Shown in pieces: positions 18,463 through 63,714 of a DNA stretch of 64,000 bases. The notes under the pieces were generated by a model. That model saw only the letters and a program-made list of their open reading frames with translations. It was not told the DNA's origin and ran no database searches. This stretch comes from an uncultured Gammaproteobacteria bacterium (GTDB lineage: Bacteria; Patescibacteriota; Microgenomatia; CAZETR01; Amesbacteraceae), in contig CAYHGA010000003.1 in NCBI GenBank assembly GCA_964356225.1, positions 266 to 64,265 on the forward strand, given 5' to 3'. The position numbers and the translations under genes were made by a program. Within the stretch, counting starts at the first letter, position 1; every line of letters starts with the position of its first letter.

Positions 18463-20004
18463 ATGATTAAATATATTGCTTACTGCCGAAAATCCACAGA
18501 TGAAAAAGATAAACAGGTTTTATCTATTGAAGCGCAAATTGCCGAACTCAAGGAGTTTGCCAAAAGAGAGGGCTTAACGGTCTCTGAATTCATTACAGAA
18601 GCCAAGACTGCTAAGATTCCGGGGAGAGTACAATTTGCTGAAATCTTAAAAAGAATAGAGAAAGGACAAGCCAACGGAATATTATCGTGGCACCCCGACC
18701 GTCTCGCTAGAAATTCGATAGATGGCGGGAAAATAATTTATCTTTTGGATACTGGCAAACTCCTTGATTTAAAATTCCCCTCGTTTTGGTTTGAGTCCAC
18801 ACCACAAGGCAAATTCATGCTCTCAATCGCCTTTGGCCAATCAAAATATTATGTCGATAATCTGTCCGAAAATGTAAAGCGAGGAAACAGACAAAAACTT
18901 CGTAATGGTGTCTGGCCCAGTAAAGCACCGTATGGCTATATCAATAACCCCAAAACGAGGGGAATAGATATTGATGAAGAAAAATCAAAAATTGTTAAAA
19001 AATCATTTCAGCTTTTTGCTGATGGAAGTATTTCTTTTACGGCTATTTCTCAATTTATGTTTAAGTTTGGGATTAAGCGAGAAGGAGAAAAACCTGTAAA
19101 AGTTGGTCAAGTTAAAAATATGCTTGCCAATAAATTTTATCTGGGAATTCTCAAATACGCCGGAGAATATTATCAAGGTTCACACAAAACCTTTATCAGC
19201 AAAAAGCTGTTTGACGAAGTTCAAAAACAAGTTGAGAAAATCGAGCGACCAAGACAAAAAGGCCACAATTTCGCTTTTGCAGGTCTGGCGACCTGCGGCG
19301 AATGCGGCGCCGCAATCACGGCGGAACAACATATAAAGAAATACAAAAACGGCACCGGCCAAACTTTTATCTATTACCGCTGTACTAAAAAGTTGAAAGC
19401 CTGTACGCAAAAATATATTTCCGAATCAGATACAGAGGAGCAGTTAAGAAAAATTGTTCGTGATTGCGGCTTGCATGAAGGCTGGGAACCGTATTTTGAA
19501 AAATGGATCACCGAAGCCGAAGAAAAAGACAAACTGACCGCCGAAACGGAAAGTAAAAAACTCGATACCCAAACCCAAGAAACAGAAATCAAATTAAACC
19601 GATTGCTTGACGGCTACCTCGACCAAGTTATTGAGCCGGATATTTACAAACAAAAGAAAAATGAATTATTTGACGAAAAACTGAAGTTAGAGGAGAATAA
19701 ATCACAAATTGAGAAAAATGGAAGTTGTTGGCTCGAACCTATGAGGGAATTCGTAAATTGCGCCTTGCAGGCGCAAAAAATCGCGCGCGCAAAAAATAAT
19801 TGCCATGATTTATCAATCATGGCAAAAAAAGTCGGCTCGAACTTCTTTTTAATGAATCGGCGGCTCTCGGCGAATTTGGATTTGGCCTTTGCAGCGCTGT
19901 CTGCGGAGGGGGGCGCAGCCAGCGCTGCCCCCACTTCTGCTTCCATTTCCAAAATTGTGAGGCGGGTGGGACTCGAACCCACGACCCTTAGCTTAAAAGG
20001 CTAG
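18463..20004 (+). CDS. large serine recombinase (resolvase/invertase-type N-domain + recombinase domain + zinc ribbon)
   Basis: Catalytic-serine region YCRKSTDEKDKQ, recombinase domain and zinc ribbon CGECG...CTKK. The ORF has no stop until it has read through repeat R3' and into tRNA-Lys (C-terminal ...VGLEPTTLSLKG), so the true C-terminus is uncertain, roughly 19830-19900. Confidence 0.85.
   Translation: MIKYIAYCRKSTDEKDKQVLSIEAQIAELKEFAKREGLTVSEFITEAKTAKIPGRVQFAEILKRIEKGQANGILSWHPDRLARNSIDGGKIIYLLDTGKLLDLKFPSFWFESTPQGKFMLSIAFGQSKYYVDNLSENVKRGNRQKLRNGVWPSKAPYGYINNPKTRGIDIDEEKSKIVKKSFQLFADGSISFTAISQFMFKFGIKREGEKPVKVGQVKNMLANKFYLGILKYAGEYYQGSHKTFISKKLFDEVQKQVEKIERPRQKGHNFAFAGLATCGECGAAITAEQHIKKYKNGTGQTFIYYRCTKKLKACTQKYISESDTEEQLRKIVRDCGLHEGWEPYFEKWITEAEEKDKLTAETESKKLDTQTQETEIKLNRLLDGYLDQVIEPDIYKQKKNELFDEKLKLEENKSQIEKNGSCWLEPMREFVNCALQAQKIARAKNNCHDLSIMAKKVGSNFFLMNRRLSANLDLAFAALSAEGGAASAAPTSASISKIVRRVGLEPTTLSLKG
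19858..19960. repeat. repeat R3', right arm of the 103-bp inverted repeat
   Basis: Reverse complement of 18305-18407. It is preceded by module b at 19824-19857 and overlaps the 3' end of tRNA-Lys at 19958-19960. Confidence 0.9.
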
Positions 20005-20030
20005 TGCTCTACCAACTGAGCTACCGCCCC
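19958..20030 (-). tRNA. tRNA-Lys (anticodon UUU)
   Basis: The minus-strand sequence GGGGCGGTAGCTCAGTTGGTAGAGCACTAGCCTTTTAAGCTAAGGGTCGTGGGTTCGAGTCCCACCCGCCTCA folds as a cloverleaf with anticodon loop CTTTTAA. No CCA is encoded. Confidence 0.8.
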
Positions 20031-20058
20031 TCACTGAACTTATCAAGAGCATTTTATA

Positions 20059-20316
20059 TCAAACTTGTCTCTTTATAAACTCACGACCTCTAAACGACTT
20101 AAGTTGCTTTTCACGAGACAACGCCTCGTTTCTAGACCCAAAAACTTCTTTATAAACAAGACTCCAATTTCCACGATTGATTTTAGTATAACTTCTCTTA
20201 CTTGAAATCAATTCACCATTGTGTCTTTTAAGTCGCTTTTCCAAATTACTGGTCTGGCCTATATAGATTTTTCCACTTTTGTTCTTAATAACATAAACTA
20301 CAAATACTTTCTCCAT
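20059..20316 (-). CDS. small GIY-YIG nuclease, YhbQ/UPF0213-like
   Basis: 85 aa with VYVIKNKSGKIYIGQTSNLEKRLKRHN (GIY-YIG). The start codon abuts the shared CTTTTAAGCT anticodon-loop segment of the disrupted tRNA-Lys copy. Confidence 0.8.
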   Translation of the reverse strand: MEKVFVVYVIKNKSGKIYIGQTSNLEKRLKRHNGELISSKRSYTKINRGNWSLVYKEVFGSRNEALSREKQLKSFRGREFIKRQV

Positions 20317-20343
20317 AGCTTAAAAGTCCGCCAGCTGGCGGAT

Positions 20344-20365
20344 CTACCAACTGAGCTACCGCCCC
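20344..20365 (-). pseudogene. 5' fragment (nt 1-22) of a second, disrupted tRNA-Lys copy
   Basis: The first 22 nt are identical to the 5' acceptor and D-arm of tRNA-Lys(UUU). Then a 16-bp palindrome TCCGCCAGCTGGCGGA replaces tRNA nt 24-31, followed by the conserved CTTTTAAGCT and the GIY-YIG ATG. Confidence 0.65.
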
Positions 20366-20417
20366 TCACTGAACTTATCAAGAGCATTTTATATCAAACT
20401 TGTCTCTTTATAAACTC
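20344..20417. repeat. 74-bp perfect direct repeat (copy B) of 20009-20082 (copy A): tRNA-Lys 5' part plus 52 bp of upstream flank
   Basis: The string ctaccaactgagctaccgcccctcactgaacttatcaagagcattttatatcaaacttgtctctttataaactc occurs twice, bracketing the GIY-YIG gene. Confidence 0.9.
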
Positions 20418-20500
20418 TCTCTCGCTTGAAGCGGCCAATCAGAGTTTGAAATCGTTGTCGCGTGGATATTAAAAAACTGATAAAATTGACCTATCCATCC

Positions 20501-20572: not shown

Positions 20573-20575
20573 CCC

Positions 20576-24179: not shown

Positions 24180-24182
24180 TCA

Positions 24183-45692: not shown

Positions 45693-45709
45693 TGAGCTTA
45701 TCGAATAGG

Positions 45710-45781: not shown

Positions 45782-45806
45782 GATCCTCTACGCAATTTTA
45801 CTACAC

Positions 45807-47300
45807 TCACCCCACCACTTCCTCTTTTTTAGTTCCCAAAAACTGCACCCAGCTATCAATAAAGCCCAGAATTACCTTAAATGGGGCCTCAAGTATAAAG
45901 TCGAAAGTAAAAGCCAGGAAATTTAATTTGGACAGCCCCTGGTTTAATATACTTCCGGCCGTCAGAATCGGCAGCCACACCATATCCCATAGAGACGACC
46001 GCTGTTTGCCCTCCTGCTTCACTCTGTAAATTCCGGCCGTTTGCCGGATTCTATGGGCCAGAAAAGCAATTACCGACAGGAAAAACACAAATACCACCTG
46101 AGCCGCAAAATTAAACCGGATTTTAGAAAGTCCGTAAAAAATCAGGCCGAATGTAGCTACAAACACCACCGCATACAATCCGGAAAATATGGTGTACCAC
46201 ACGCTTCTTCTCTGCGCCGGCTTCTCAAGCAATCCATCTTCCTCCTTGGCCAAGGCTTCAAAGTTATTCACTACTAGCCAAGCTCTATTTACAATTTCTT
46301 CTTTTTCTCTGCCCTTTGGCAAGCTTATTTGTCTCGTCACCGCCCACATCAAAGCCGGAGGAAATAGCATATTAGCCACCAGCGGCCACTTGGCCACGCT
46401 ACCAAACAACCATACCTCGGCCGGCATCTCTATCGCCACTGCCACCACCATTTTAGTCAAAAACACATAGATTACGCTTCTGACCGCCGCCGTAGAGATC
46501 CTTTCTCCCATTAATCGCAACTGTTTATCCAAAACTTTGCTCGCTGTCTGGCTAAAATTATTCTTGTCTTCAATCATCTGTCTAAACCCGCCTGGATCGG
46601 CAAAATACATGTCCCGGAGTAGAAGTAGTGCCCCCATCTGACTGCTCACAAATTTTTGCAACCTGTTTAACAGGGGGCTATTCTTAGCCAGACTAACCAA
46701 TCTCCAAGTTTCGTTAATATTCCCTCCAGCTAGTTGCAATATATGATATGCCTGCTGCTCGTCATCTGACTGGGAATAAATTCTGTCCACTGCCATAAAT
46801 ACTAATAGGTCCAAGTTTGGATCGGTCACTTTTACTTTCTGTTTAATCACCTGGAAAGTAAAGTAAGTAAATTTTCCGAAATCCCGGTTTAAATTAAACA
46901 TCTCCTCTATTTCTGCCGAAGCTACCCCCATCAGCCATTCTCGAGGTACTCCGGACTCGAATACTTTGATATAACGCTCCAAAGTTTGCGCCAGTTTCGC
47001 TTCACTCACCTGTTCCAATTCCGCAATCGACACATATCTGGCCCATTTCAATTCGATAAGTAGCAGCTTGGCCAATCCACTCGGGTCTTTTTCATACACC
47101 ATCAGCCTTTTTAGAATTCTTTCAATCGCCGCCCGCCGCACCAAATGATCCGCTCTGTATTCCAGGGCATTTCTGGCTTTCTCATACACCCGGGCCAGCA
47201 CGCTCACTACGCTTTGATCATCATCCCTGGCTCCGCCATCAACCCTCACTCCATAACTTAATTGATCCAAAAAAATCTTTACCGCCGGATGCATACTCAC
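45807..47300 (-). CDS. hypothetical protein with C-terminal multi-TM region
   Basis: A 497-aa soluble N-domain with about 4 C-terminal TM helices. No recognisable family. Confidence 0.45.
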   Translation of the reverse strand: MSMHPAVKIFLDQLSYGVRVDGGARDDDQSVVSVLARVYEKARNALEYRADHLVRRAAIERILKRLMVYEKDPSGLAKLLLIELKWARYVSIAELEQVSEAKLAQTLERYIKVFESGVPREWLMGVASAEIEEMFNLNRDFGKFTYFTFQVIKQKVKVTDPNLDLLVFMAVDRIYSQSDDEQQAYHILQLAGGNINETWRLVSLAKNSPLLNRLQKFVSSQMGALLLLRDMYFADPGGFRQMIEDKNNFSQTASKVLDKQLRLMGERISTAAVRSVIYVFLTKMVVAVAIEMPAEVWLFGSVAKWPLVANMLFPPALMWAVTRQISLPKGREKEEIVNRAWLVVNNFEALAKEEDGLLEKPAQRRSVWYTIFSGLYAVVFVATFGLIFYGLSKIRFNFAAQVVFVFFLSVIAFLAHRIRQTAGIYRVKQEGKQRSSLWDMVWLPILTAGSILNQGLSKLNFLAFTFDFILEAPFKVILGFIDSWVQFLGTKKEEVVG

Positions 47301-53668: not shown

Positions 53669-54829
53669 ATGGCACTCAAAAATCCAATCCTTTGTGGTAT
53701 TGATATTGGTTCTTCTAAAATTGCTTTAATCGTGTCAGTCATGGAGAATGGCCGGATTAGTGTGTTGGGAGTAGCCACAATGCCTTCTAAAGGCATTAAG
53801 AAAGGTCAGATCGTAGATATTGATGGTACTGCAGATGTGGTTAAGGAGTGCTTAAAAGCAGCTGAAAGAATGTCTGGACACACAATAAATTCAGCCTTTG
53901 TATCAATCGGGGGATCACACATCGAAAGTACCAACACCCACGCCGTAGTAGCCATATCTCCTGATCACGATATAAACGATAAGGATTTGGAAAGATTAAA
54001 CGAAATTGCCAAGGCAGTAGCTTTACCCTCCTCAAGGGAAATATTGCACACTTTACCGATAAGCTACACCATAGACGGCCAAACAGGAATAAAGAATCCT
54101 CTGGAAATGTCTGGCTCGAGATTGGAAGTTGTCACCCACATCGTTAGCGGATCAAGTGTAGCCATCAGTAATTTGACTAAATGTATGGAAAAGGTAGGAG
54201 TAAATATCGAAAGAATAGTTTTTGCAGGTGTTGCTTCTGCCGAGGCCATTTTGACGGAGACCGAAAAAGAGCTAGGCGTGGTGTTGATTGATTTGGGAGC
54301 TGAAACTGTAGATATTGTAATAATTTACGAAGGAGCTGTAGTCTATTCTGCAGTAACACCTATAGGCACTAAATATATTACCAATGACATTGCCATTGGA
54401 CTAAAAATCTCTATGGAATCAGCCGAGTCAATTAAGCGGGAAGCCGTTGATCCCACTCTAAAAAGCGATGAAAACATGATAATCAAAGCCAGAGTAAAAG
54501 AAATTTTAGAACTGGTAAATAAAGAGATCAAGAGAAGTAAGTATGGGCTTCAGGTTCCTTTGGGTGTAGTTGTCTGTGGCGGTGGATCTTTGACAGTGGG
54601 CTTAATTGACCAAATAAGACGCATATTGGCTTTTCCAGCCAGAATAGGCAAGGTAGAAGGTTGGAGTGGTTTGACTGATGAAATCGGTTCTCCTGCTTTT
54701 GCCACGGCTGCAGGTTTGATCTTGTATGGATTAAATACACAAACAGATAATACTAAAGGTTTCTCTGCCAAAACTTGGTTTGATAAGGTTACCAACTTAA
54801 TAATAAAAACAATTCGCTCGTTATTTTAA
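53669..54829 (+). CDS. ftsA: cell division protein FtsA (actin-like ATPase)
   Basis: N-terminus GIDIGSSKIALIV and full FtsA domain order, with a C-terminal amphipathic helix (KTWFDKVTNLIIKTIRSLF). No ftsZ follows. Confidence 0.75.
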   Translation: MALKNPILCGIDIGSSKIALIVSVMENGRISVLGVATMPSKGIKKGQIVDIDGTADVVKECLKAAERMSGHTINSAFVSIGGSHIESTNTHAVVAISPDHDINDKDLERLNEIAKAVALPSSREILHTLPISYTIDGQTGIKNPLEMSGSRLEVVTHIVSGSSVAISNLTKCMEKVGVNIERIVFAGVASAEAILTETEKELGVVLIDLGAETVDIVIIYEGAVVYSAVTPIGTKYITNDIAIGLKISMESAESIKREAVDPTLKSDENMIIKARVKEILELVNKEIKRSKYGLQVPLGVVVCGGGSLTVGLIDQIRRILAFPARIGKVEGWSGLTDEIGSPAFATAAGLILYGLNTQTDNTKGFSAKTWFDKVTNLIIKTIRSLF

Positions 54830-55006
54830 TAACTTTATACAAGCCGCCGCTCTATTATCACTACCCAATTTCAAACATTCCATTTTTCGTTCTTCTATAG
54901 TTCTTGGTTTTAGCTCTTTGTAAATCCTGATGCCAAAATAAGCAACAACTACCAAACAGGTTATAAAGATAATTAAGTTTAACGGTTGTCTAATAAAGTT
55001 TTTCAT
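54821..55006 (-). CDS. tiny single-TM protein
   Basis: 61 aa with one TM helix. The last of four overlapping small genes. Confidence 0.35.
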   Translation of the reverse strand: MKNFIRQPLNLIIFITCLVVVAYFGIRIYKELKPRTIEERKMECLKLGSDNRAAACIKLLK

Positions 55007-55009
55007 AAT

Positions 55010-55231
55010 TTATAGTCCTTTCTCATGCAAGCATTTCTTATATGCATAATCATAACAGTCTTCACGCCTACAACTTGCTCGTTCTCCCCATTGTACAGCC
55101 CAATTACAGTAAGACCTTGTTCTTACCGGACGCCACTGGAACCAATAGAACCAACTAGCCATTAAAAACAGACCAAGTAAAATCAATAATATTTTCTGTT
55201 TATTTTCCTTAATCATATTTATTTTTGCCAT
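55010..55231 (-). CDS. tiny single-TM Cys-rich protein
   Basis: 73 aa with a TM helix and four Cys. Confidence 0.35.
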   Translation of the reverse strand: MAKINMIKENKQKILLILLGLFLMASWFYWFQWRPVRTRSYCNWAVQWGERASCRREDCYDYAYKKCLHEKGL

Positions 55232-55638
55232 CTTCCTTCAATTTTTGCTTCAGTACAATTATTAATAAAGCCTTCTCCAAAAGATTGAAGTTCTTTATTT
55301 TGCAACATGTTGTTTGTACATAATTCTGTCAAACAAGATCTTACGGCGTCAAAAAAAGATTCTTCATTCTTATTTGCTATTGCTATACACTCAGTACGAG
55401 CCCTGTTCCATGTGTCTTGTGTTATTTTTTGGCTTTCTCGAAAATTATCTTCCCGTTCTTTTATTAGTTTATCATTCTTTGCAACAGAATCCTTTTCTTT
55501 TTGATATTCAAATATTTGTTTTTCTAGTATTAATTGAGCACTCTCTTTTTTTGGAACGAGTATTACAAAATAGTAAGCAATAGACAGAGATGCAATTAAG
55601 ATAGAAATTCCTAAAAGGATAAGCAAAATCTTTTTCAT
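55219..55638 (-). CDS. small TM + coiled-coil protein
   Basis: 139 aa with an N-terminal TM helix and a charged coiled-coil-like tail. Confidence 0.4.
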   Translation of the reverse strand: MKKILLILLGISILIASLSIAYYFVILVPKKESAQLILEKQIFEYQKEKDSVAKNDKLIKEREDNFRESQKITQDTWNRARTECIAIANKNEESFFDAVRSCLTELCTNNMLQNKELQSFGEGFINNCTEAKIEGRWQK

Positions 55639-56222
55639 ATATTATCAAGGGTCTTTACTTTTTCCCATTGGTCAAATCCATTAAAAATCATCTGCCCTCC
55701 CCAAAGAAAACCGCCAATCCAGATAATCGGTAAACCAAGATATATTGTTAGCCCTCCTAACCCGATTATTGATGTCCCTATGAAAATTTTGGGCCAAGGA
55801 TTAAAGGATCTAAAATTCAATTCTTGGCCACATTTATTGCAATTATTTATTACTCCTATATTTTGACGACTAAATACAAGTTTGCAGTTTGTACAATATA
55901 GCCGAAGGTATTTATTTCCTTTTAGATTTATCTCTTGCATAATCTTGCTAAATGACGCCACATCATTGTTCTCAACTATATCAATCATCGTTTCAATATC
56001 CTCTTCGCTCATATCAGGAGTAACTTTACGTAAGTTTTTTCTGGCCTCTTCTCGTGTGATTCCTATTTTTAATTTATCGACATCCATACAATTTTTGGTT
56101 AAAGGAAAACAAAAAGCTCCCCACCAGTGGCGGCCTCTCAGCCACCCACATCTCTTTCGAGACGTGACCTCAGTGAGAAGCTCTGATGAGGAGCTTTTAC
56201 TCACTGAGGATTTCTGTACCAT
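55635..56222 (-). CDS. zinc-ribbon (CxxC...CxxC) + C-terminal TM protein
   Basis: CTNCK...CNKCGQ followed by a TM helix. The likely real start is the internal Met (MDVDKLKIG) near 56087. Confidence 0.4.
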   Translation of the reverse strand: MVQKSSVSKSSSSELLTEVTSRKRCGWLRGRHWWGAFCFPLTKNCMDVDKLKIGITREEARKNLRKVTPDMSEEDIETMIDIVENNDVASFSKIMQEINLKGNKYLRLYCTNCKLVFSRQNIGVINNCNKCGQELNFRSFNPWPKIFIGTSIIGLGGLTIYLGLPIIWIGGFLWGGQMIFNGFDQWEKVKTLDNI

Positions 56223-56318
56223 GCCTAAAAGTTTGCACCTCTAGGTTTAGGCAACTATTGAAAGTTTAGCATATTTCGAAATTTGCCTTGTGATATTTTG
56301 CGTTTGTAAAATTGGATC

Positions 56319-56645
56319 ATGGTCAAAGAAGATAAAACAGCTCTACTCAAGAAAAGATTCATTGAATACTTTTGTGAATTGCCGGTGCAGAAACTGGCCG
56401 GGGCTTGGATTGGAAAAGATGAGGACACGATTTCCCAATGGAAGAAGAAAGATGCGGATTTTGCGGACCAAATCGGCAAGGCTAAGGCAAACTGGGCAAT
56501 GAAACACTCAAAAGCGATTAAATCCGATGAATGGCTACTCGAACGAATTATGAAGGATCACTTCGCTTCCCGCAACGAACTTGTCGGAGACATGACAGTT
56601 AATATTATCAGACGATCATATCTTGAAAATATAAATGGAGAATGA
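56319..56645 (+). CDS. small DNA-binding protein, terminase small-subunit-like
   Basis: 108 aa, placed immediately upstream of and overlapping terL. No firm motif. Confidence 0.35.
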   Translation: MVKEDKTALLKKRFIEYFCELPVQKLAGAWIGKDEDTISQWKKKDADFADQIGKAKANWAMKHSKAIKSDEWLLERIMKDHFASRNELVGDMTVNIIRRSYLENINGE

Positions 56646-57993
56646 AATTCCGTATCATTTCAAAGCCAGGGATTATCAAATTCCCTTTTTAAGGGAAGTC
56701 GAAAAGGCTGTTGAGGGTAAAAGTGATAAACGATATTTTATGCAGATTTGGCATAGGCGATCTGGTAAAGACAAGGTCAATATAGCCGATATTGTCCCCG
56801 GAAGACTCATCAAAGATCCAATCCTCGTTAAATTCGTCTATCCGACTTTAGTAATGGGTCGAGATAACCTCTGGGAAGGCATAGGCAGTGACGGTTTCAA
56901 GTTCATTGACCATATTCCGGAATTTATTCGGGCCGGCCAGGCTAATCAGTCCCGCATGACCATTCCCATTATAAAAGGTTCAATCTTTCAAATTGCCGGC
57001 ACGGACAATCCCGACTCGCTTAGAGGTGGCAATGCAAAGATGTATGTTTTCTCCGAATGGAGTGAGCATGACCCCTACGCTTGGGACGTGGTAGAACCGA
57101 TTCTTCGGGAAAACGACGGCATTGCCATTTTTAACATGACTCCCAAAGGTGATAATCACGCCCGAGCTCTGTACGAATACGCCAAGAACAACCCTAAATG
57201 GTATGTTGAGGTTTTAACGGCCCAAGATACCAGACTATTTAGTCCAGCGCAATTAGATGAGATTCGGCAGGACATTATCAGCCGTTTTACCGCCAATGGC
57301 CGGAGCGAATCAGAAGCTTTGGCTTATTTCGATCAGGAGTATATGTGCAGCTTCACTTCTCCGGTTATTGGATCATATTATGGAGCGGCAATTCGCAAAG
57401 CCGAAGAAGAAAACCGAATAACCAGCGTTCCCCACAATTCAGGCGTGTCGGTTTCAACCTACTGGGATCTGGGTATTGATGACTCTACGACCATTTGGTT
57501 TCTGCAAACAGTTGGTCAAGAACTCCACTTAATTGATTATTACGAAAACTCCGGAGAAGGGTTGCCCCATTATGTCCAGATCATTCACGGTAAAGGTTAC
57601 ACCTATCAAAACCATTATGCTCCCCACGATATTGAAGTCAGAGAGTTGGGAAGCGGAAAATCGAGAATGGAAATTGCTAAGAGTCTGGGTATCAATTTTA
57701 AGTTATGCCCCAACCTTTCCGTCGATGACGGAATCGAAGCCGCCCGGACAATTTTCTCTCGTTGCTGGTTCGACCAGACGAAATGTGACCGGGGTATCCA
57801 AGCCCTCAAGAACTATAAGAAAGATTGGGACGAGAAGAACAAAATCTTCAGAAACAACCCGAAACATGACTGGTCGAGTCATGGGGCCGACAGCTTCCGC
57901 TATCTGGCAATCGGCTACAGGGAACCAAAGCGGTACATTCCCCAAATTGATTTTGGAGGCGTAAAACCGCTCTACCCAGACTGGTTCGCCTAG
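56635..57993 (+). CDS. terL: phage terminase large subunit
   Basis: Walker-A-like WHRRSGKDK (Terminase_6 style) and a C-terminal RNaseH-like nuclease region (YWDLGIDDSTTIW...DSFRYLAIG). Confidence 0.7.
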   Translation: MENEIPYHFKARDYQIPFLREVEKAVEGKSDKRYFMQIWHRRSGKDKVNIADIVPGRLIKDPILVKFVYPTLVMGRDNLWEGIGSDGFKFIDHIPEFIRAGQANQSRMTIPIIKGSIFQIAGTDNPDSLRGGNAKMYVFSEWSEHDPYAWDVVEPILRENDGIAIFNMTPKGDNHARALYEYAKNNPKWYVEVLTAQDTRLFSPAQLDEIRQDIISRFTANGRSESEALAYFDQEYMCSFTSPVIGSYYGAAIRKAEEENRITSVPHNSGVSVSTYWDLGIDDSTTIWFLQTVGQELHLIDYYENSGEGLPHYVQIIHGKGYTYQNHYAPHDIEVRELGSGKSRMEIAKSLGINFKLCPNLSVDDGIEAARTIFSRCWFDQTKCDRGIQALKNYKKDWDEKNKIFRNNPKHDWSSHGADSFRYLAIGYREPKRYIPQIDFGGVKPLYPDWFA

Positions 57994-58052
57994 AGGTAAC
58001 AATTTAACAGTCTAAACGCTTATAATAGGCTCAATTAACTATTAAGATTAAA

Positions 58053-58874
58053 ATGAAAAAAAGTAAGATCGCGAAATCTCAGACTAGCGTTACGGAAGAA
58101 GTATATTATCCCACGGTTATCCCCGATAAAAGTGATGAACTGGACAGAATAAGTCGAGAGATGCAAATCCGTGATAGGGATAAAAGAGAAGCTGAAAAAA
58201 AACACAAAGAACTTCTACGCCAACAAAGAATAGTAAATACCACTGAAAATAAATACCTTCACACTATTAATCTTCTCCTGGATAGGGCAGAACAAAAAAA
58301 GATAAAAAACACTATTGATAGCAATTCAACTGGGACCGGCTTTTCAGTTAAATGGGAGTTCTTTAATTTCGAGGATAACAATATGTTGAAAAATTTTCTC
58401 AATGAATTAAAGAGCAAAGGTTGCTTTGATTGGCAAGTTAACCCCTTTATGCCCGCTCATGTGGCAGAGTTTATATTCACTAATGTAAATTCTGAAGCAC
58501 TCTCAAAAGAAAAAGTAACCAAAGAAGTCATTCGCTTTGTACCGGGAGAAATCGTACTTTACAACAAGGGAGTTGTTTACTTTAAGCAAGGAGATGGTTT
58601 ACCAGCCTCCATTGATTTTTCTACAGCCCCATGTGAGCAAAAGACAGTGGACGCCCTTATGGAATTAAGGGCAGAAAAACTGGGACAAACTAGTTTTACG
58701 CCTAAAGATATTTTGGACAAATACAGCAAACTACATAAAAAACCTATTACCTTGCGTGACATCGCTATCTCTATTTCAAACATTCAAAAAAGGGTGAGAA
58801 TAAAAGCTCTTGAGAGCCGATTTAATATAGGCTACGATAAAAAAACAAAGACGAGAGTTTTTCAGCTTTCCTAG
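58053..58874 (+). CDS. hypothetical protein (island cargo)
   Basis: 273 aa with a charged N-terminus. No motif recognised. Confidence 0.4.
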   Translation: MKKSKIAKSQTSVTEEVYYPTVIPDKSDELDRISREMQIRDRDKREAEKKHKELLRQQRIVNTTENKYLHTINLLLDRAEQKKIKNTIDSNSTGTGFSVKWEFFNFEDNNMLKNFLNELKSKGCFDWQVNPFMPAHVAEFIFTNVNSEALSKEKVTKEVIRFVPGEIVLYNKGVVYFKQGDGLPASIDFSTAPCEQKTVDALMELRAEKLGQTSFTPKDILDKYSKLHKKPITLRDIAISISNIQKRVRIKALESRFNIGYDKKTKTRVFQLS

Positions 58875-58974
58875 GCTCCATCTCTTACATATTACGTGTA
58901 TTACGCAGATTAGACAGCTTTAGCTTCGAATTTGGTCTATTGACTCGTTCCCGTAATCTAGCGATTGTCGTCTC

Positions 58975-59235
58975 ATGACAAGATTACAAGAAGATAAAAT
59001 CTTCGCTTCGCAGGAGCTTTCATTAGTAGCCGCTTTGGTTTCTTGGGGGTTCCCAATTTTTTCTGTTGAAAGATCCGACCCCAAACGTATTATCTTTGCG
59101 TTTGATAACTCCCCTGAACTCCAAGATGCGGTGCAGGACTTTTGGGATGACTCTGGAGTAGTTTCGCCCAAAAAGTATTTCAGTGCGCTTCGAGAAATTA
59201 AATCAAGAATCTATGGAGGTGGCAATGTTGCTTAA
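58975..59235 (+). CDS. hypothetical small protein
   Basis: 86-aa ORF. Confidence 0.3.
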   Translation: MTRLQEDKIFASQELSLVAALVSWGFPIFSVERSDPKRIIFAFDNSPELQDAVQDFWDDSGVVSPKKYFSALREIKSRIYGGGNVA

Positions 59236-59461
59236 TAAGGCTTCAGTCATACACCAATGTTCTTCTTGTGGATCAAAGGAGCGAATCTATACTCTGAAAC
59301 TCATTTCCTCAGGCCGATCTTTCCCATACCCGATGTATATTCCCCAGATCAAAGAGCTTTGTCAGAAGTGTAATAGGTATATCCGCTTTGTCCCCCAATC
59401 GCCCGAGTTAGTTAACCGTTTTAACAACAGATTGGAGGAAGAGTGGCTCGTAAACGCATGA
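59183..59461 (+). CDS. small zinc-ribbon protein
   Basis: CSSCGS...CQKCNRY four-Cys arrangement. Confidence 0.35.
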   Translation: MRFEKLNQESMEVAMLLNKASVIHQCSSCGSKERIYTLKLISSGRSFPYPMYIPQIKELCQKCNRYIRFVPQSPELVNRFNNRLEEEWLVNA

Positions 59462-59976
59462 TCGATCCAAGTATTTGGGCTGATGAGGACTTCGGCAGGC
59501 TCTCTTCTGATGCAAAAGTGATGTTTATTGGCATGATTTCTAACGCCGATGACGAAGGAAGACTTCCCGGTGATTCCATTTATTTGAGCGCAACAATCTT
59601 TCCCTTCAATGGATTGTCCCCTCAAAAAGCATCAAGAATCTGTAAAGAAATTGAGGAAAAAATGAAATCTGCAACGTTTTTTGTTGAAAAATCGAAAAAA
59701 TACATTCAGCTCGAAAAATTCCTTATCTATCAATCAATAAACAGACCCACCCCTAGCAAGTATCCCCAGCCTCGAAAAGACGAAAAGACTCATGTAGTAC
59801 TCACTGAACAATCATTGAGGACTCATGGAGGACTCACTCCTAATAGAATAGAAGAGAATAGAAAGGAATCTCTTTCAAAAGAAAATCCACCGTATGGTGA
59901 TAATGAGTTTGAGAAAAATGCGTGGGAAGCGGCAAATGAGGTAACAGCTATCCTCAACAGAAGGAGACAAAAATGA
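59443..59976 (+). CDS. phage replisome organizer-like protein (N-terminal domain)
   Basis: MIDPSIWADEDFGRLSSDAKVMFIGMISNADDEGRL matches the phage replisome organiser N-domain pattern. Confidence 0.5.
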   Translation: MARKRMIDPSIWADEDFGRLSSDAKVMFIGMISNADDEGRLPGDSIYLSATIFPFNGLSPQKASRICKEIEEKMKSATFFVEKSKKYIQLEKFLIYQSINRPTPSKYPQPRKDEKTHVVLTEQSLRTHGGLTPNRIEENRKESLSKENPPYGDNEFEKNAWEAANEVTAILNRRRQK

Positions 59977-61577
59977 ATCCCCTAGACCATGCAAAAGTCT
60001 ATTTGGGCCTTGGTTGGTCGTTGATACCAATTGTTCCGGAGACCAAGAAACCGCCAATATTGTGGGGTGAGTTCCAAACTAGAAGGGCAACTTTATCAGA
60101 AATTGAAGAGTGGATAACCAAAGGCTGGTATTTAGCGGTTGTCACAGGAGATATATCCGGAGTGTTGGTGGTTGACGATGACCGGGTTAAGCACGGCCTC
60201 AATGAATGGGGTTTTACTTCACCAATGATCGCTAAGTCTCAAAATAGCGGAAAGCATTATTACTACAAGTACGATCGAGAAATCCATAGCCACTCAAATG
60301 GTGATTTACACATTGATTTGAAAGCATGGCACTCTTATTGCTTATTACCTCCCTTCAACGGTCGAGAATGGCTATCTAGTCTTTCGGAAAACCTAAACAA
60401 ACTAACCTTTATTCCCGACGAAATCGTGAGACTGGTAAATTCTGACAAGGTAGAGAGGGAACAACGCCGGGAACCATTGAGAATGGCCGACTTTATAAAC
60501 ATCCCAGAAGGGGCGAGAACTGACAGTTTACATCGTCTAGGTTGTTCAATTTTTAACCACATGAGCAAGGATGACGGAATGAGAATATTAGCCGGAGTTA
60601 ACCTAACTTACGAACCACCCCTTACTCAGAGTGAATTCGATTACCAAATTTCCAGAGCGTGGGAATTTGTGCAGGCTAATCCGAAGAAGAAACCTCCTGA
60701 ACCTGAAGTTGCTGTACCTCATCAAGACAGGCTTGTGCTAAAAAGCGGAATACCTTCATTAGACGCCATCCTAGGTGGATTCCATTCAGGGGGAGGATAT
60801 ATTATCGGTGGCGAAGAAAAATGCGGCAAAACGAGTCTGATATTGAACTTTGTTCAGTATTTCGTCGAATCAGATCAACGAGTTTTTTACGCCTCAACCG
60901 AACTTAAAGATTATGACGTCCAAAGCTACATGGACTCAATCTCCGGTAAAAAAGGTTGGACAAACCCAAATTTTCACTTTTATGACTTGGGAGAGACAGG
61001 TTCCTTAAAAGAACATCTTGAGATTATCGAGTCGGAATTGGCTTCCGGAACTAGAATCGTAGTGATAGACAACTTAACATCCTATCGTGACCACATTAAT
61101 CTAGCAAAAGACGAGTGGATGCGAATAGCACAGGCCGGAGATAGTTACCGAAAACTGGGCAGAAAATGGGAGGCGGTTGTGCTTATGGTTCTTCACTTAA
61201 ACCAAGGCACGAAACTCAACGAAATCCCCAAGTCGGTAAGGGTACTTCTAGAAAAGGGTGAGGCTGAGAAAATTTTTACCGAAAGTGTTTCGGTTTACGG
61301 ACGGCCCTCAAAAGACAACTTAAAGGGTGGATCAGGTTTCAGAAGCCAAACTTTTGGTCAGATATTAGTTTGGCGTCCATTCCAGGGCTTTTATTTACCT
61401 CACCTAAATAAATTGTGTGGTTTGATTGTGGAAAACAACCGATACGGTCCCACTGGTGAAGTCCGGCTTAATTTTGATGGGGCTACTAAGAAGTTTGAAG
61501 AGGTCGAGCTAACACCTACCGAAAAAGATGATGACAAACCTTATCAATCTGAATTTTCAAATATGGAGCAGATATGA
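59973..61577 (+). CDS. bifunctional primase-polymerase (PrimPol N-domain) fused to DnaB-like/RecA-fold helicase
   Basis: LGLGWSLIPIVPETKKPPILWGEF...VVTGDISGVLVVDDD (Prim-Pol) and a C-terminal SLDAILGGFHSGGGYIIGGEEKCGKTSL Walker A. Confidence 0.7.
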   Translation: MNPLDHAKVYLGLGWSLIPIVPETKKPPILWGEFQTRRATLSEIEEWITKGWYLAVVTGDISGVLVVDDDRVKHGLNEWGFTSPMIAKSQNSGKHYYYKYDREIHSHSNGDLHIDLKAWHSYCLLPPFNGREWLSSLSENLNKLTFIPDEIVRLVNSDKVEREQRREPLRMADFINIPEGARTDSLHRLGCSIFNHMSKDDGMRILAGVNLTYEPPLTQSEFDYQISRAWEFVQANPKKKPPEPEVAVPHQDRLVLKSGIPSLDAILGGFHSGGGYIIGGEEKCGKTSLILNFVQYFVESDQRVFYASTELKDYDVQSYMDSISGKKGWTNPNFHFYDLGETGSLKEHLEIIESELASGTRIVVIDNLTSYRDHINLAKDEWMRIAQAGDSYRKLGRKWEAVVLMVLHLNQGTKLNEIPKSVRVLLEKGEAEKIFTESVSVYGRPSKDNLKGGSGFRSQTFGQILVWRPFQGFYLPHLNKLCGLIVENNRYGPTGEVRLNFDGATKKFEEVELTPTEKDDDKPYQSEFSNMEQI

Positions 61578-61867
61578 AGACTTTGTTTCTCAAAACTAGT
61601 AGCACCTATCTTCTTAAACAGTTTCGGTGTTTCGGCATCCCGGTGATGCGAGAAGGTGACCAAACAATTGGCTTCTTACCCCCCAGCTTTTTTGTGGGAG
61701 TAAATAACCAACTGCTGGTGAGCAAAAGATTAAAACAATGGGCAAAAAACATGGATCCAAATGTGATTCTTACTTTAGGAGAATGGCAACCGTTAAATAT
61801 CTTTTGGGAAAAGGCTATTCCTTCACTCTTGCTGGGTAACTTAATCAAAATATATGACAAACCATGA
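61574..61867 (+). CDS. hypothetical small protein
   Basis: 97 aa, overlapping the upstream stop. Confidence 0.3.
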   Translation: MKTLFLKTSSTYLLKQFRCFGIPVMREGDQTIGFLPPSFFVGVNNQLLVSKRLKQWAKNMDPNVILTLGEWQPLNIFWEKAIPSLLLGNLIKIYDKP

Positions 61868-62035
61868 TTAGCCAAATTGCGCTATCGGAGTTAAAGACAA
61901 TCTTGTTAAAAGATTATGGCTGGTCGGGTGACGATAAAACTACCACCCAGCTTGCAAATTATTTTTTGGTATCTCTTGAAGCGGTACTTTTGAGTCCAAA
62001 AGTTGACAAAACACCCAGAAAGGAGGCAAAGTGAT
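61865..62035 (+). CDS. small ORF (56 aa) immediately upstream of and overlapping the integrase start; RDF/excisionase candidate
   Basis: Manual translation gives MISQIALSELKTILLKDYGWSGDDKTTTQLANYFLVSLEAVLLSPKVDKTPRKEAK. It is not in the ORF track. Confidence 0.25.
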
Positions 62036-63659
62036 AGTCAACGATCTGTCAAAAATGAAAATTATATCCACTGTCCAAAAACGATACTATTTAGTCTACT
62101 TGCGAAAAAGTAGCGAGTCAGAAGACCGCCAAGTTCAAAGTATCGAAGACCAAAGAAAAGAAATTAAGCCCCTAATTGAGGATAGAAGTCTCGAAATTTT
62201 AGAAGTGTTTCAAGAATCCAGATCGGCAAAAGCTCCAGGTAGAGTTGAATTTGACCGCATGGCCAAACTCATAAGCGAGCGAGAGGATATTAAGGGTATT
62301 GTTTGCTGGAAATTAAACCGTCTTAGCCGTAATCCTGTGGACACTGGGGCGCTACAATGGCTGATACAGTCTAAAAAGATCGAAGAGATTGTTACTCCAA
62401 GCAAGACTTATACCGATGTTGATAGTGACTTTATTATGGCTGTGGAAGGCGCTCAAGCCAATAGATTCATACGGGATCTAAAAGAAGACACTTGGCGAGG
62501 CATGAAATCCAAAATTGAAAAAGGGATGGCTCCGGTATTAGCCGTTCCGGGGTATCTAAACGACAAAACAAAAGATCAAGGTAAGAAAGATATTATTGTG
62601 AATCCAGTGCAGTTCCCACTAATGCGTAAACTTTTTGATATGGCTTTGACAGGTAACTATTCGATTACTGATCTTTATGAGCAGGCAGATAAAATGGGCA
62701 TCAGAACTAATCGAGGGAAAAGAATTAGTCATTCTCGAATGGCAGAATTATTGAAAGATATATTTTATATAGGTAAGTTTGTTTATGGTGGTCAGACATA
62801 TGATGGCATCCATAAACCAATGTTATCTATGCAGGAATTTGAACTGTTGCAAGAGATATTCTCCAAAGGAGATAGACCAAGATCATCCGTTCACCACAAT
62901 CCCTATTCTGGGGATCTAATTAAATGTGTCTGCGGAAGATCGCTATCACTTGACCCCAAAGTAAAGACATATAAAAATGGTAAGTCACAAGAGTTTGTTT
63001 ACTTACGATGCAATCGTCCACACTATCAACCCAATAGTGCTTGTCCAAAATCTTCAATCAACATTAAAGATCTGGAAAAACAGATCCTTGAGCAACTGGG
63101 ATCAATCCTCATTTCACCTGATCTTATTAAATGGGGAATCGAAAGATTGAATGAAAAGAATATGGACAAACAAAAGTCTCGTGAAGCTGAAAATCTAGCA
63201 ATCAAACAGGCTTATGATCGAGTGGTAATCCAATTAGATAGTCTTCTTCAATTAAAGCTGTCACCCAATAATATCAATGGAAGTTTATTGTCGGATATGG
63301 AATATGCAGAGCAAAGAGTGATCCTTTTGAAGGAAAGAGATAAATACAATGTCCAACACAGTTCGTTGGACAAGAATAGAGAAGATTGGGCACAGATGGC
63401 TGTGGCAGTGTTTAACTTCGCCGCAAAAGCTCAAGAGAAGTTTGCTACCGGTAATTTGGAAACCAAACGAGACATTTGTAAGATCTTTGGAACCAGCATG
63501 ATTTTGAATGGAAAAAAGCTCGAAGTTTTATCCAGAACGCCGTTTATTTTTATAAAAGATGCTTTAAGAGTCACCGAACCTAACAAAATGCCTATTTATA
63601 GCTCCGAAGCGACACTTCATGCCTTTGAAGATAACTTTGGGGTGGTGTACGGGAGTTGA
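62031..63659 (+). CDS. large serine recombinase (integrase), paralog of 18463-20004
   Basis: YLRKSSESEDRQ catalytic region, recombinase domain and a Zn-ribbon (CVCGRS...CNRPHY...C). GTG start. The 3' end overlaps tRNA-His by 19 nt. Confidence 0.85.
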   Translation: MIVNDLSKMKIISTVQKRYYLVYLRKSSESEDRQVQSIEDQRKEIKPLIEDRSLEILEVFQESRSAKAPGRVEFDRMAKLISEREDIKGIVCWKLNRLSRNPVDTGALQWLIQSKKIEEIVTPSKTYTDVDSDFIMAVEGAQANRFIRDLKEDTWRGMKSKIEKGMAPVLAVPGYLNDKTKDQGKKDIIVNPVQFPLMRKLFDMALTGNYSITDLYEQADKMGIRTNRGKRISHSRMAELLKDIFYIGKFVYGGQTYDGIHKPMLSMQEFELLQEIFSKGDRPRSSVHHNPYSGDLIKCVCGRSLSLDPKVKTYKNGKSQEFVYLRCNRPHYQPNSACPKSSINIKDLEKQILEQLGSILISPDLIKWGIERLNEKNMDKQKSREAENLAIKQAYDRVVIQLDSLLQLKLSPNNINGSLLSDMEYAEQRVILLKERDKYNVQHSSLDKNREDWAQMAVAVFNFAAKAQEKFATGNLETKRDICKIFGTSMILNGKKLEVLSRTPFIFIKDALRVTEPNKMPIYSSEATLHAFEDNFGVVYGS

Positions 63660-63714
63660 ACCCGCTAAAACTGCCTCCACAGGGCAGCGCCTAAACCGTT
63701 CGGCACACACCACC
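63641..63714 (-). tRNA. tRNA-His (anticodon GUG) with encoded G-1
   Basis: G(-1)+GTGGTGTGTGCCGAACGGTTTAGGCGCTGCCCTGTGGAGGCAGTTTTAGCGGGTTCAACTCCCGTACACCACC. Perfect 7-bp acceptor stem, anticodon loop CTGTGGA and discriminator C. Confidence 0.75.

What the first reader, a model, noticed from the sequence alone, without database searches (positions are those of the whole stretch)
18463..63714. Two paralogous large serine recombinases, each with its 3' end overlapping a tRNA gene on the opposite strand (tRNA-Lys, tRNA-His)
Both recombinases (513 and 542 aa) share architecture and recognisable sequence similarity, for example KIPGRVQFAEILKRI versus KAPGRVEFDRMAKLI. Both are the last gene of an accessory block and both run into a convergent tRNA. 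This suggests one integrase family that uses tRNA genes as att sites and has generated at least two islands in this genome. tRNA targeting is classic for tyrosine integrases but much less documented for serine integrases.
Basis: partly seen in the sequence, partly recalled or inferred. Interest (0 to 1): 0.6.

Follow-up and report, generated by a model that had tools for sequence, protein, structure and literature searches.

The report
Serine integrase elements at tRNA ends
Two small mobile DNA islands in this groundwater candidate-phyla-radiation bacterium each sit at the very 3' end of a tRNA gene next to a large serine recombinase, and one belongs to a very large, apparently undescribed family found at more than 20 different tRNAs.

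Summary
ORF 18463-20004 (513 aa) and ORF 62031-63659 (542 aa) are both complete large serine recombinases (LSRs). They are 27% identical (E 2e-54). Their 3' ends overlap the convergent tRNA-Lys(UUU) and tRNA-His genes by 48 and 22 nt.

The adjacency is a family property, not chance. In 60 of 66 evaluable relatives of the Lys-side LSR, a convergent tRNA of 22 isoacceptor types starts at the same position. Relatives of the His-side LSR abut tRNA-His. Two further LSR lineages, only 22-28% identical, abut tRNA-Glu and tRNA-Leu.

Repeats in the window and in relatives place the crossover in the last bases of the acceptor stem. The ORF/tRNA overlap follows from this, because the attachment site lies inside the LSR 3' end.

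The two islands are different elements:
- The Lys island is a 3.4-kb minimal element of LSR plus one cargo gene.
- The His island is an 8.8-kb satellite-like element with replication genes and a TerL-like gene.

The Lys-type family has unreported features:
- an intact inverted attP in the LSR 5' leader;
- a covarying structured leader motif absent from Rfam;
- an antisense terminator for the tRNA embedded in the LSR ORF;
- hypervariable cargo.

No empty site or excised circle was seen.

The parts
15097..15265 (+). Remnant of an older element. It comprises the core TTGTGA (15097-15102), an A-type arm, a fragment of an LSR 3' end (15134-15166) and a divergent B arm with its GC hairpin. It ends in TTTTTGGTGA|TCCCGC.
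   Evidence: Direct repeats D1 and D4 and the sequence itself. The B' arm is 94% identical to the B arm of L066, which abuts tRNA-Glu.
15345..16379 (-). Fic/DOC-domain gene. It lies in the low-GC block between the remnant and the intact element. Its status is uncertain: it may be cargo of a decayed element.
   Evidence: Pfam Fic, E 7.7e-19. GC is 0.36.
16595..16750 (+). Left end (attL) of the Lys element. It comprises the core TTGTGA (16595-16600), the P'-type arm 'A' (to 16631), GC hairpin 'C' (16632-16705) and conserved segment D.
   Evidence: Sequence. The same arm follows variable host sequence at the left end of about 25 related loci. The A-C-D segment is conserved in relatives.
16773..17972 (+). 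Cargo gene, an MFS transporter.
   Evidence: Pfam MFS_1, E 1.4e-29. The equivalent position in relatives holds unrelated genes.
18030..18128 (+). Conserved structured leader motif with two interleaved helices. A conserved TGTATATT lies just upstream of it.
   Evidence: 95% of cells are paired, 19 of 31 pairs show compensatory changes, and 0 of 500 shuffles reach the observed score. Covariance model R1 finds it in 36 loci, always in the LSR sense. No Rfam family matches.
18199..18407 (-). Internal intact attP-like site in inverted orientation. Read on the - strand it is the B arm (18407-18311), the core TTGTGA (18310-18305), the A arm (18304-18274) and the C hairpin (18273-18199). It lies 56 nt upstream of the LSR ATG.
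   Evidence: It is 103/103 identical to 19858-19960 and 99% identical to 16592-16706. An equivalent inverted copy is present in 53 of 57 loci.
18463..20004 (+). LSR of the Lys element, 513 aa. Its last ~35 codons are the B arm, and its last 15 codons are antisense tRNA-Lys.
   Evidence: More than 7,900 homologous clusters exist.
19790..19825 (-). Intrinsic-terminator-like hairpin plus T-run on the tRNA strand, embedded in the LSR coding sequence about 135 nt downstream of the tRNA-Lys 3' end.
   Evidence: Terminator scan. It is present at the same place in 62 of 66 loci, with compensatory stem changes.
19858..19960 (+). attR, comprising the B arm (with GC hairpin 19891-19928) and the core TTGTGA (19955-19960), joined to the tRNA-Lys 3' end.
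   Evidence: Hairpin covariation is shown.
19957..20030 (-). tRNA-Lys(UUU), intact. It is the target of the Lys element.
54829..54836 (+). Candidate attL core (ATAACTTT) of the His island, immediately after the FtsA stop codon. This is inferred.
   Evidence: The same 8-mer precedes tRNA-His at 63631-63638. Synteny with L103 ends at 54801 and resumes at 61859.
56129..56253 (-). LOOT RNA (RF03000) inside the His island.
   Evidence: 83 bits against a gathering score of 46. The region is conserved in the related elements L104 and L105.
56635..61577 (+). Core genes of the His island: TerL-like (56635-57993), replication initiator (59443-59976) and Prim-Pol/DnaB-like primase-helicase (59973-61577).
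   Evidence: PHROGs and Pfam hits.
62031..63659 (+). LSR of the His island, 542 aa.
   Evidence: It matches PHROG integrase at E 2.9e-55.
63631..63713 (-). attR core (63631-63638) and tRNA-His(GUG) (63638-63713), intact with an encoded CCA.

Best explanation
Both recombinases are integrases of mobile elements that inserted by site-specific recombination at the extreme 3' end of a tRNA gene.

Lys element (16595-19960, 3.4 kb)
- The attP site is the B arm, a short core and the A arm. The B arm is the last ~100 nt of the LSR gene.
- Recombination with the tRNA 3' end produced attL (host sequence joined to the A arm at 16595) and attR (the B arm joined to tRNA-Lys at 19955-19960).
- The crossover lies in the last bases of the acceptor stem (about tRNA positions 71-72). 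The tRNA body therefore stays intact.
- The element supplies the discriminator base, the 3' trailer, a GC hairpin and a terminator for the tRNA.
- Recognition probably relies on the acceptor end plus the universal T-arm sequence. The A arm carries the same TCGAAC motif 4 bp further from the core. This would explain how closely related LSRs use many different tRNAs.
- A second, intact, inverted attP lies in the LSR's own 5' leader. It most likely acts as an operator for autoregulation.

His element (about 54837-63638)
- This is a separate, satellite-like element with replication genes and a TerL-like gene.
- Its distant LSR recombines just 3' of the tRNA-His CCA end.

Shown versus inferred
- Shown: the anatomy, the repeats, the family-wide tRNA junction, and the covariation.
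- Inferred: the recombination chemistry, the exact crossover base, T-arm recognition, the operator role, and the His attL.
For: 1. Both proteins are complete LSRs with the catalytic Ser motif conserved.

2. In 60 of 66 evaluable genome loci of the Lys clade, a convergent tRNA starts at the predicted junction, 50 of them within 3 nt. Together they cover 22 isoacceptor types, while the LSRs are 54-91% identical.

3. The six exceptions are consistent with the model:
- L039 is a tRNA 3' fragment.
- L088 is an N-masked tRNA-Gln.
- L020, L050, L061 and L089 are junctions with a P'-type arm, which I read as tandem insertions. In L089 this is shown to be the left side of a second LSR element that abuts tRNA-Glu.

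4. Within each locus the internal site and attR are identical through the B arm and 1-4 nt into the acceptor end, and then diverge. The left-end site shares only the A arm. The shared core changes with the target tRNA: GTGA, GTGC, GGTCG, GTTG, GTGG, GAGC, GCAG.

5. The family occurs in multiple copies per genome and in many Microgenomates lineages. It carries hypervariable cargo.

6. An antisense terminator sits inside the LSR ORF in 62 of 66 loci.

7. His clade: relatives at 44-90% identity abut tRNA-His in L100, L103 and L105, and abut a degenerate tRNA-His in L104. A 28%-identical LSR abuts tRNA-Leu. L103 shows the same FtsA...tRNA-His flanks with different island content.

8. The internal attP lies between a conserved structured leader and the LSR start codon.
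Against: - No unoccupied attB and no excised circle was found for either island. Integration is therefore reconstructed, not observed.
- No recombination directionality factor candidate is conserved in the Lys-type element. How it would excise is unknown.
- The host-side half of attB (the tRNA trailer) is not conserved between loci, which is unusual for LSR attB sites.
- The intact inverted attP copy, and its near-100% identity to the terminal copies over about 215 nt, is more than an operator would need.
- The crossover dinucleotide rests on three loci whose attL reads GCG where the internal attP reads GTG (L024, L030 and L032).
- The His attL is an 8-nt match. L103 supports it only loosely.
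Confidence: 0.8

Rival explanations
1. The Lys-type unit is not a self-mobile element. It is a resident recombinase platform that captures or exchanges cargo cassettes. The cargo is flanked by inverted A arms and lies next to an intact attP beside the recombinase gene, somewhat like attI and cassettes in an integron, or like recombinase-mediated cassette exchange.
For: - Cargo is hypervariable between conserved flanks.
- An intact attP is kept next to the LSR in 53 of 57 loci.
- Arrays of P'-type arms, each followed by a small gene, are seen in L020.
- The terminal and internal copies show concerted evolution.
Against: - The unit as a whole is found at 22 tRNA types and in many lineages at 80-90% LSR identity, so it moves as a unit.
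- The two A-arm sites have the same polarity in inverted orientation, which is not the arrangement of an integrated cassette.
- No free cassette and no A-A junction was seen.
- No flipped cargo or flipped LSR orientation was observed.
Confidence: 0.1
2. The tRNA genes belong to the elements and are carried as cargo. The LSR-tRNA pair would then be a conserved module, not an insertion junction.
For: - The tRNA is always present, at a fixed distance and in a fixed orientation.
- Many mobile elements carry tRNA genes (general knowledge).
Against: - tRNA identity changes among LSRs that are 82-91% identical.
- Sequence identity between attR and the internal attP stops 1-4 nt into the tRNA.
- Beyond the tRNA lie host tRNA clusters and housekeeping genes. 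In the window these are tRNA-Glu, His_Phos and RuvC.
- The Lys/Glu tRNA pair is seen occupied at either member, and unoccupied in L089.
Confidence: 0.04
3. tRNA loci are general hot spots for island insertion. On this view the islands entered by another route and the LSR genes are passengers or decayed genes.
For: - The Lys locus shows accretion: a remnant element, the Fic gene and a GIY-YIG insertion.
- No activity was shown for either LSR.
Against: - No tyrosine integrase or transposase is present in either island.
- Both LSR ORFs are intact.
- The junction is nucleotide-precise across 60 loci, and the core co-varies with the target.
Confidence: 0.03

Closest known systems
Phage and prophage large serine integrases (phiC31, Bxb1, A118/LI Int, SPbeta SprA)
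   Same: - Same domain architecture: Resolvase, Recombinase and zinc ribbon, followed by a C-terminal region of the length seen in such integrases.
- The best solved relatives are SPbeta SprA/YokA (E 9e-18) and A118 Int (E 2e-7).
- There is a short common core, with attP next to the integrase gene.
- The outer motif lies about 4 bp further from the centre in the P' arm than in the target arm. This resembles the roughly 5-bp attP/attB offset described for A118 Int (my own knowledge; not tested here).
   Different: - The target is the 3' terminus of tRNA genes of many kinds, not a protein-coding gene.
- attP lies inside the integrase coding sequence.
- A second, inverted attP lies in the 5' leader.
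- No RDF candidate was found.
- The element is only 3.4 kb and has no phage genes.
SCC elements (SCCmec) with CcrAB/CcrC serine recombinases
   Same: - LSR-driven insertion at the 3' end of a conserved housekeeping gene without inactivating it.
- Cargo is variable.
- Tandem or composite arrays form because the target end survives each insertion (my own knowledge). L089 and the remnant in the window are comparable.
   Different: - The target is a tRNA 3' end, not rlmH (orfX).
- The hosts are Patescibacteria.
- There is a single LSR and a much smaller element.
- The internal inverted attP, the structured leader and the antisense terminator have no SCC counterpart that I know of.
tRNA-targeting genomic islands with tyrosine integrases, and tycheposons
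   Same: - The integrase gene sits at the island end next to a tRNA whose function is preserved.
- Several islands can stack at one tRNA.
- Tycheposons are small cargo-carrying or PICI-like elements at tRNAs, and 27 of 937 encode an LSR (bioRxiv 10.1101/2020.12.28.424599).
   Different: - The recombinase is a serine enzyme.
- The shared core is only 4-8 bp, so there is no displaced tRNA fragment of tens of bases.
- The crossover is at the very end of the acceptor stem or in the trailer, not in the anticodon or T loop.
Tn3/gamma-delta res-resolvase autoregulation
   Same: A serine recombinase's own recombination site lies in the promoter or leader region of its gene, where binding can repress expression (my own knowledge). 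Here an intact attP sits between a conserved leader and the LSR start codon.
   Different: - This is a large integrase, not a small resolvase.
- The site is a full inverted duplicate of the terminal att arms.
- Repression is not demonstrated.
Phage-inducible chromosomal islands and other phage satellites (for the His island)
   Same: An island of about 9 kb with an integrase at one end, a replication initiator, a primase-helicase and a single packaging-type gene (TerL-like). It has no capsid or tail genes.
   Different: - It has a serine rather than a tyrosine integrase.
- It contains a LOOT RNA and a truncated FtsK-like gene.
- The helper phage and induction are unknown.

Membership tests
Large serine recombinase (serine integrase) | N-terminal resolvase catalytic domain with the catalytic serine | tested here: met
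   Pfam Resolvase at E 2.9e-20 and 2.1e-16. The R-K-S motif is invariant in the His-clade alignment (R25, K26, S27). The Lys LSR reads CRKST at residues 8-12.
Large serine recombinase (serine integrase) | Recombinase domain plus zinc-ribbon domain C-terminal to the catalytic domain | tested here: met
   PF07508 and PF13408 score above the curated cut-offs in both proteins.
Large serine recombinase (serine integrase) | Short att sites sharing only a few bases around a central dinucleotide, with attL and attR as hybrids of attP and attB | tested here: met
   In the Lys clade the B-core-A, host-core-A and B-core-tRNA sites share a 4-7 nt core. The central dinucleotide itself is only inferred.
Large serine recombinase (serine integrase) | Catalysis of attP x attB recombination, and excision that depends on an RDF | not testable with these tools
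   This needs an in vitro or in vivo assay. No conserved RDF-like ORF was found.
Classical tRNA-integrating genomic island (tyrosine-integrase type) | Tyrosine recombinase at the island end | tested here: not met
   The only recombinases in either island are serine enzymes.
Classical tRNA-integrating genomic island (tyrosine-integrase type) | Direct repeat of a tRNA 3' segment (tens of bases) at the distal island end | tested here: not met
   The repeat searches find no tRNA fragment at either left end. Only the 6-nt core (Lys) or an 8-nt core (His) is shared.
Integron | IntI tyrosine recombinase, attI, and cassettes bounded by folded attC sites | tested here: not met
   The recombinase is an LSR. 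The cargo is flanked by inverted copies of an att arm plus a GC hairpin, not by attC sites.
Phage satellite / PICI-like element (His island) | Integrase, replication module and packaging-related gene without virion structural genes, about 10 kb | tested here: inconclusive
   The TerL-like gene, replication initiator, primase-helicase and integrase are present, and no capsid or tail hits were found. Several ORFs have no annotation. No helper or induction data exist.
LOOT RNA (Rfam RF03000) | Score above the Rfam gathering threshold over the full model | tested here: met
   83.2 bits against a threshold of 46.4, covering model positions 1-121 of 121, at 56129-56253 (-).

The most novel reading that the evidence does not exclude
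The Lys-type LSR units would be a distinct, very abundant and so far undescribed class of minimal integrative element in Patescibacteria (Microgenomates), with four properties:
- They recognise the generic acceptor and T-arm end of tRNAs, and can therefore colonise many tRNA genes.
- They rebuild the tRNA's 3' flank, supplying the discriminator, trailer, hairpin and terminator.
- They keep a second, intact, inverted attP inside a structured LSR leader.
- That second attP serves as more than an operator. It could be a site for cargo exchange, or one half of a long inverted repeat that pairs in a single-stranded transfer intermediate.
Probability: 0.3. Interest if true: 0.8.

Novelty: new variant of a known kind. 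Interest (0 to 1): 0.62.

Why it matters
- **Textbook expectation.** Integration into tRNA genes is regarded as a property of tyrosine integrases. Large surveys of serine integrases have looked only at protein-coding targets. A clade of serine integrases with thousands of members that systematically uses tRNA 3' ends would change that picture.
- **Gene flow in reduced genomes.** It would help explain gene flow in the very small genomes of candidate-phyla-radiation bacteria. The cargo includes transporters, enzymes and defence-like genes.
- **Possible tools.** It would offer a set of natural integrases whose target, the tRNA acceptor and T-arm end, exists in every organism.
- **Testable regulatory parts.** The family also contributes three new, testable pieces: a covarying leader motif, an attP inside the leader, and a terminator for the neighbouring tRNA encoded antisense within the integrase gene.

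Tried and rejected
- **Empty sites.** Exact-protein look-ups of both LSRs and of the flanking host genes (FtsA, His_Phos, the 362-aa left-flank gene) returned only the same arrangement, or contigs that break at the repeats. No empty site and no circle junction was found.
- **Collection scans for the His LSR.** The metagenome scan gave only 4 loci and the viral scan only 3. The His-clade test therefore rests on a small sample of loci.
- **Repeats in the His island.** The repeat search found no internal att copy like that of the Lys element.
- **Non-tRNA sequences after some LSRs (L020, L023, L050, L061, L089).** I tested whether they are unrecognised RNAs such as tmRNA. Rfam found nothing. I read them as P'-type arms of downstream elements; this was shown only for L089.
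- **The 50-aa ORF 17967-18119 (-) as a possible RDF.** It is not conserved as a protein.
- **Inversion of the LSR segment or the cargo between the inverted sites.** No flipped arrangement was found in about 60 loci.
- **Simultaneous pseudoknot in the leader.** Rejected on geometry: the connecting loops are 6 nt and 2 nt. The two helices are more likely alternatives. This is inference.
- **Literature.** Searches found no description of this family. The key TIGER paper (PMC7192596) is not held.

Full report
**Source and observation**

The window is part of a 69.6-kb contig from a Hainich groundwater metagenome (ENA ERZ1292616). Relatives of its genes come from Patescibacteria of the Microgenomates group.

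ARAGORN and Rfam find six tRNA genes, including tRNA-Lys(UUU) at 19957-20030 (-) and tRNA-His at 63638-63713 (-). ORF 18463-20004 (513 aa) and ORF 62031-63659 (542 aa) run into these tRNAs from the opposite strand and overlap them by 48 and 22 nt. Both proteins have the full Resolvase + Recombinase + zinc-ribbon architecture of large serine recombinases (LSRs). They align over 487 residues at 27% identity, E 2e-54.

**Is the adjacency more than chance?**

The Lys-side LSR has more than 7,900 homologous protein clusters, many of them 80-90% identical. A scan of one genome per species found 227 loci, of which 80 were kept. They come from Woese-, Gottesman-, Shapiro-, Roizman-, Levy-, Davies-, Collier- and Beckwithbacteria, and some genomes hold several copies.

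Of the 66 loci with enough sequence after the gene, 60 have a convergent tRNA at the predicted position, 50 of them within 3 nt. The tRNAs belong to 22 isoacceptor types.

The six exceptions fit the model:
- L039 is a tRNA 3' fragment.
- L088 is an N-masked tRNA-Gln.
- L020, L050, L061 and L089 are junctions with another, non-tRNA arm.

In L089 that arm is the left side of a second element, whose own very distant LSR abuts tRNA-Glu. This is a tandem insertion at one tRNA.

For the His-side LSR, relatives at 44-90% identity abut tRNA-His (L100, L103, L105) or a degenerate tRNA-His followed by tRNA-Phe (L104). A 28%-identical LSR abuts tRNA-Leu. Four LSR lineages that are only 22-30% identical to one another thus share the habit.

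**Attachment sites of the Lys element**

Three related sites occur in the window.
- At 19858-19960 a ~100-nt 'B arm', which is the last 35 codons of the LSR, ends in TTGTGA and continues into the tRNA.
- On the minus strand at 18407-18199 the same B arm (103/103 identical) ends in TTGTGA and continues into an 'A arm' (ACGTTTTTGAACAAATTCGAACG...) and a GC hairpin 'C'.
- At 16595 unrelated sequence is followed by TTGTGA, the A arm and C.

These are what attR, an intact attP and attL of a serine integrase would look like. The element then spans 16595-19960 (3.4 kb) and carries one cargo gene, an MFS transporter.

The same three-site layout is found throughout the clade. In each subfamily the internal site and attR are identical through B and 1-4 nt into the acceptor end of the tRNA, and then diverge. 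The shared core changes with the target:
- GTGA for Lys, Glu and Val;
- GTGC for Arg, Leu and Tyr;
- GGTCG for Pro;
- GTTG or GGCTG for Gln;
- GTGG for Ile;
- GAGC for Gly;
- GCAG for Trp.

Three loci (L024, L030, L032) whose attL reads GCG where the internal attP reads GTG suggest that the crossover lies at tRNA positions 71-72. This is weak evidence.

It follows that the tRNA body is untouched, while its discriminator, any encoded CCA and its trailer come from the element. In the attP form the ORF would end in the A arm (...ISKIVNVFEQIRTYFKSNC). After integration it ends in antisense tRNA.

**How many tRNAs can be recognised**

In the consensus, the tRNA arm has the T-loop sequence TCGAAC starting 16 nt from the core. 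The A arm has TTCGAAC 4 nt further out. The B arm read outward has GGAAATCGA at tRNA-like spacing.

I infer that the enzyme reads the acceptor end plus the universal T-arm sequence. The 4-bp offset recalls the attP/attB difference described for A118 integrase. That comparison rests on my own knowledge and was not tested.

**Adaptations to living next to a tRNA**

On the tRNA strand, about 135 nt downstream of the tRNA 3' end and inside the LSR coding sequence, there is a hairpin followed by a T-run (19790-19825). A hairpin plus T-run is found at the same place in 62 of 66 loci, with compensatory stem changes. The element therefore appears to supply a terminator for the tRNA whose native 3' flank it displaced.

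The B arm also contains a GC-rich hairpin. Its sequence differs between subfamilies but its pairing is kept.

**The internal inverted attP and the leader**

In 53 of 57 loci an inverted copy of the LSR 3' end lies 37-400 nt upstream of the LSR start codon, and it is mostly 97-100% identical to the terminal copy. The copies differ strongly between loci. They therefore evolve in concert within each element.

Upstream of this site is a conserved ~100-nt motif (window 18030-18128) with two interleaved helices:
- 95% of cells are paired.
- 19 of 31 pairs show compensatory changes.
- None of 500 shuffles reaches the observed score.
- Slid controls are low.

G-U pairs favour the LSR-sense strand. A covariance model finds the motif in 36 loci, always in that orientation. 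It also finds it directly upstream of the distant second LSR of L089. No Rfam family matches it. A conserved TGTATATT precedes it.

The internal attP therefore lies inside the LSR's leader. The simplest reading is that it works as an operator, as res does for Tn3 resolvase (my own knowledge). This does not explain why about 215 nt are kept identical, so I rate it as the best guess only.

I found no flipped LSR or cargo orientation. I also found no conserved small ORF that could be a directionality factor.

**Cargo and accretion**

The segment between the inverted A arms is 0.75-5 kb and holds unrelated genes in different loci:
- MFS and EamA transporters;
- a nitrilase-type hydrolase and an aldo-keto reductase;
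- methyltransferases;
- an Exo_endo_phos nuclease and a HopA1-like protein;
- an S8 peptidase with an AAA ATPase;
- a Schlafen/AlbA_2 protein;
- an rve transposase;
- glycosyltransferases.

There are no replication or transfer genes.

Left of the intact element the window holds a decayed older copy. At 15097-15265 there is a core, an A arm, an LSR 3' fragment and a divergent B arm that ends at what looks like the first bases of a tRNA-Glu-type end. A Fic gene follows.

**The His island**

Synteny with L103, which carries an 86%-identical LSR, holds through FtsA up to 54801 and resumes at 61859. In both genomes the island lies between FtsA and tRNA-His, but with different content.

The 8-mer ATAACTTT follows the FtsA stop (54829-54836) and also precedes the tRNA-His CCA end (63631-63638). 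I take it as the common core, which gives an 8.8-kb island. This is inferred, and L103 supports it only loosely.

The island encodes:
- a TerL-like protein (phrog_2, E 4.5e-25);
- a replication initiator;
- a Prim-Pol/DnaB-like protein;
- DUF5659 (PF18903, from the precomputed gene calls);
- a truncated FtsK-like gene;
- a LOOT RNA.

It has no virion genes. It resembles a phage satellite or an integrated plasmid-like element. It has no internal att copy.

**Comparison with what is known**

The proteins are members of the LSR family on every sequence criterion tested. They are distant from solved examples: SPbeta SprA at E 9e-18 and A118 Int at E 2e-7.

The elements work like serine-integrase islands. 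In logic they are closest to SCC elements, which insert at the 3' end of a conserved gene and form arrays. They also resemble the LSR-bearing minority of tycheposons at tRNA genes.

They are not classical tRNA islands, because they lack both a tyrosine integrase and a displaced tRNA fragment. They are not integrons.

The large LSR survey (PMC10083194) analysed only protein-coding targets and never mentions tRNA. My searches found no description of this family.

**Verdict**

The finding is real, and its main idea holds. I rate it a new variant of a known kind: serine-integrase elements with a new, generic target class and several unreported regulatory parts.

The main gaps are:
- no observed empty site or circle;
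- no known excision factor;
- the unexplained intact inverted attP.

Noticed in passing
window 20084-20418 (GIY-YIG ORF 20059-20316, - strand): A 335-nt unit lies upstream of tRNA-Lys. It contains an 85-aa GIY-YIG nuclease gene. Its 5' leader is a copy of the tRNA-Lys promoter region and tRNA nt 1-24, followed by the palindrome CCGCCAGCTGGCGG and the anticodon loop. It is flanked by perfect 75-nt direct repeats (20008-20082 and 20343-20417). A contig from a sister sample (L002) has the same locus with the unit precisely absent, so the unit is polymorphic in the population.
   Followed up: partly
window 18030-18128 (+): A conserved ~100-nt structured motif with two interleaved, strongly covarying helices lies upstream of LSR genes. 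It is found in 36 loci and has no Rfam family. It may be a regulatory leader or a small RNA.
   Followed up: partly
window 19790-19825 (- strand): An intrinsic-terminator-like hairpin plus T-run is encoded antisense within the LSR ORF, downstream of tRNA-Lys. It is conserved with compensatory changes in 62 of 66 loci.
   Followed up: yes
window 56129-56253 (-): A LOOT RNA (RF03000, 83 bits) lies inside the His island. The region is conserved in two other LSR-His-type elements (L104, L105), which suggests the RNA belongs to this element family.
   Followed up: partly
window 55635-56222 (-): This 195-aa ORF matches, at the DNA level, the 3' part of a 461-aa FtsK_SpoIIIE gene in the related element L104. 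It is probably a truncated DNA-translocase gene.
   Followed up: no
window 19891-19928, 18337-18374 and 16650-16700: The B and C arms contain GC-rich hairpins with G-rich or C-rich loops. Their sequence differs between subfamilies, but their pairing is maintained.
   Followed up: partly
L089 6001-12549; L020 2610 and 7495: These loci show tandem arrays at one tRNA. In L089 an LSR element is followed by the left arm of a second element, whose 25%-identical LSR abuts tRNA-Glu. L020 has two P'-type arms, each followed by a small gene (one is PLD-like).
   Followed up: partly
proteins P0069, P0076, P0077, P0082 (865-894 aa) and P0035 (604 aa): Some homologues of the Lys-side LSR are much longer: about 880 aa at 46% identity. 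One carries a GMP_synt_C Pfam hit, possibly from read-through into a non-tRNA target.
   Followed up: no
window 45108-45647 (-) and 45620-45832 (+): Long ORFs overlap the tRNA-Gln/Lys/Arg cluster at 45544-45781. They are almost certainly spurious.
   Followed up: no
window 37294-37332: A perfect 18-nt repeat (TATGACTACGAATGACAA), present twice with 21-nt start-to-start spacing, lies inside the 932-aa ORF 35531-38329.
   Followed up: no
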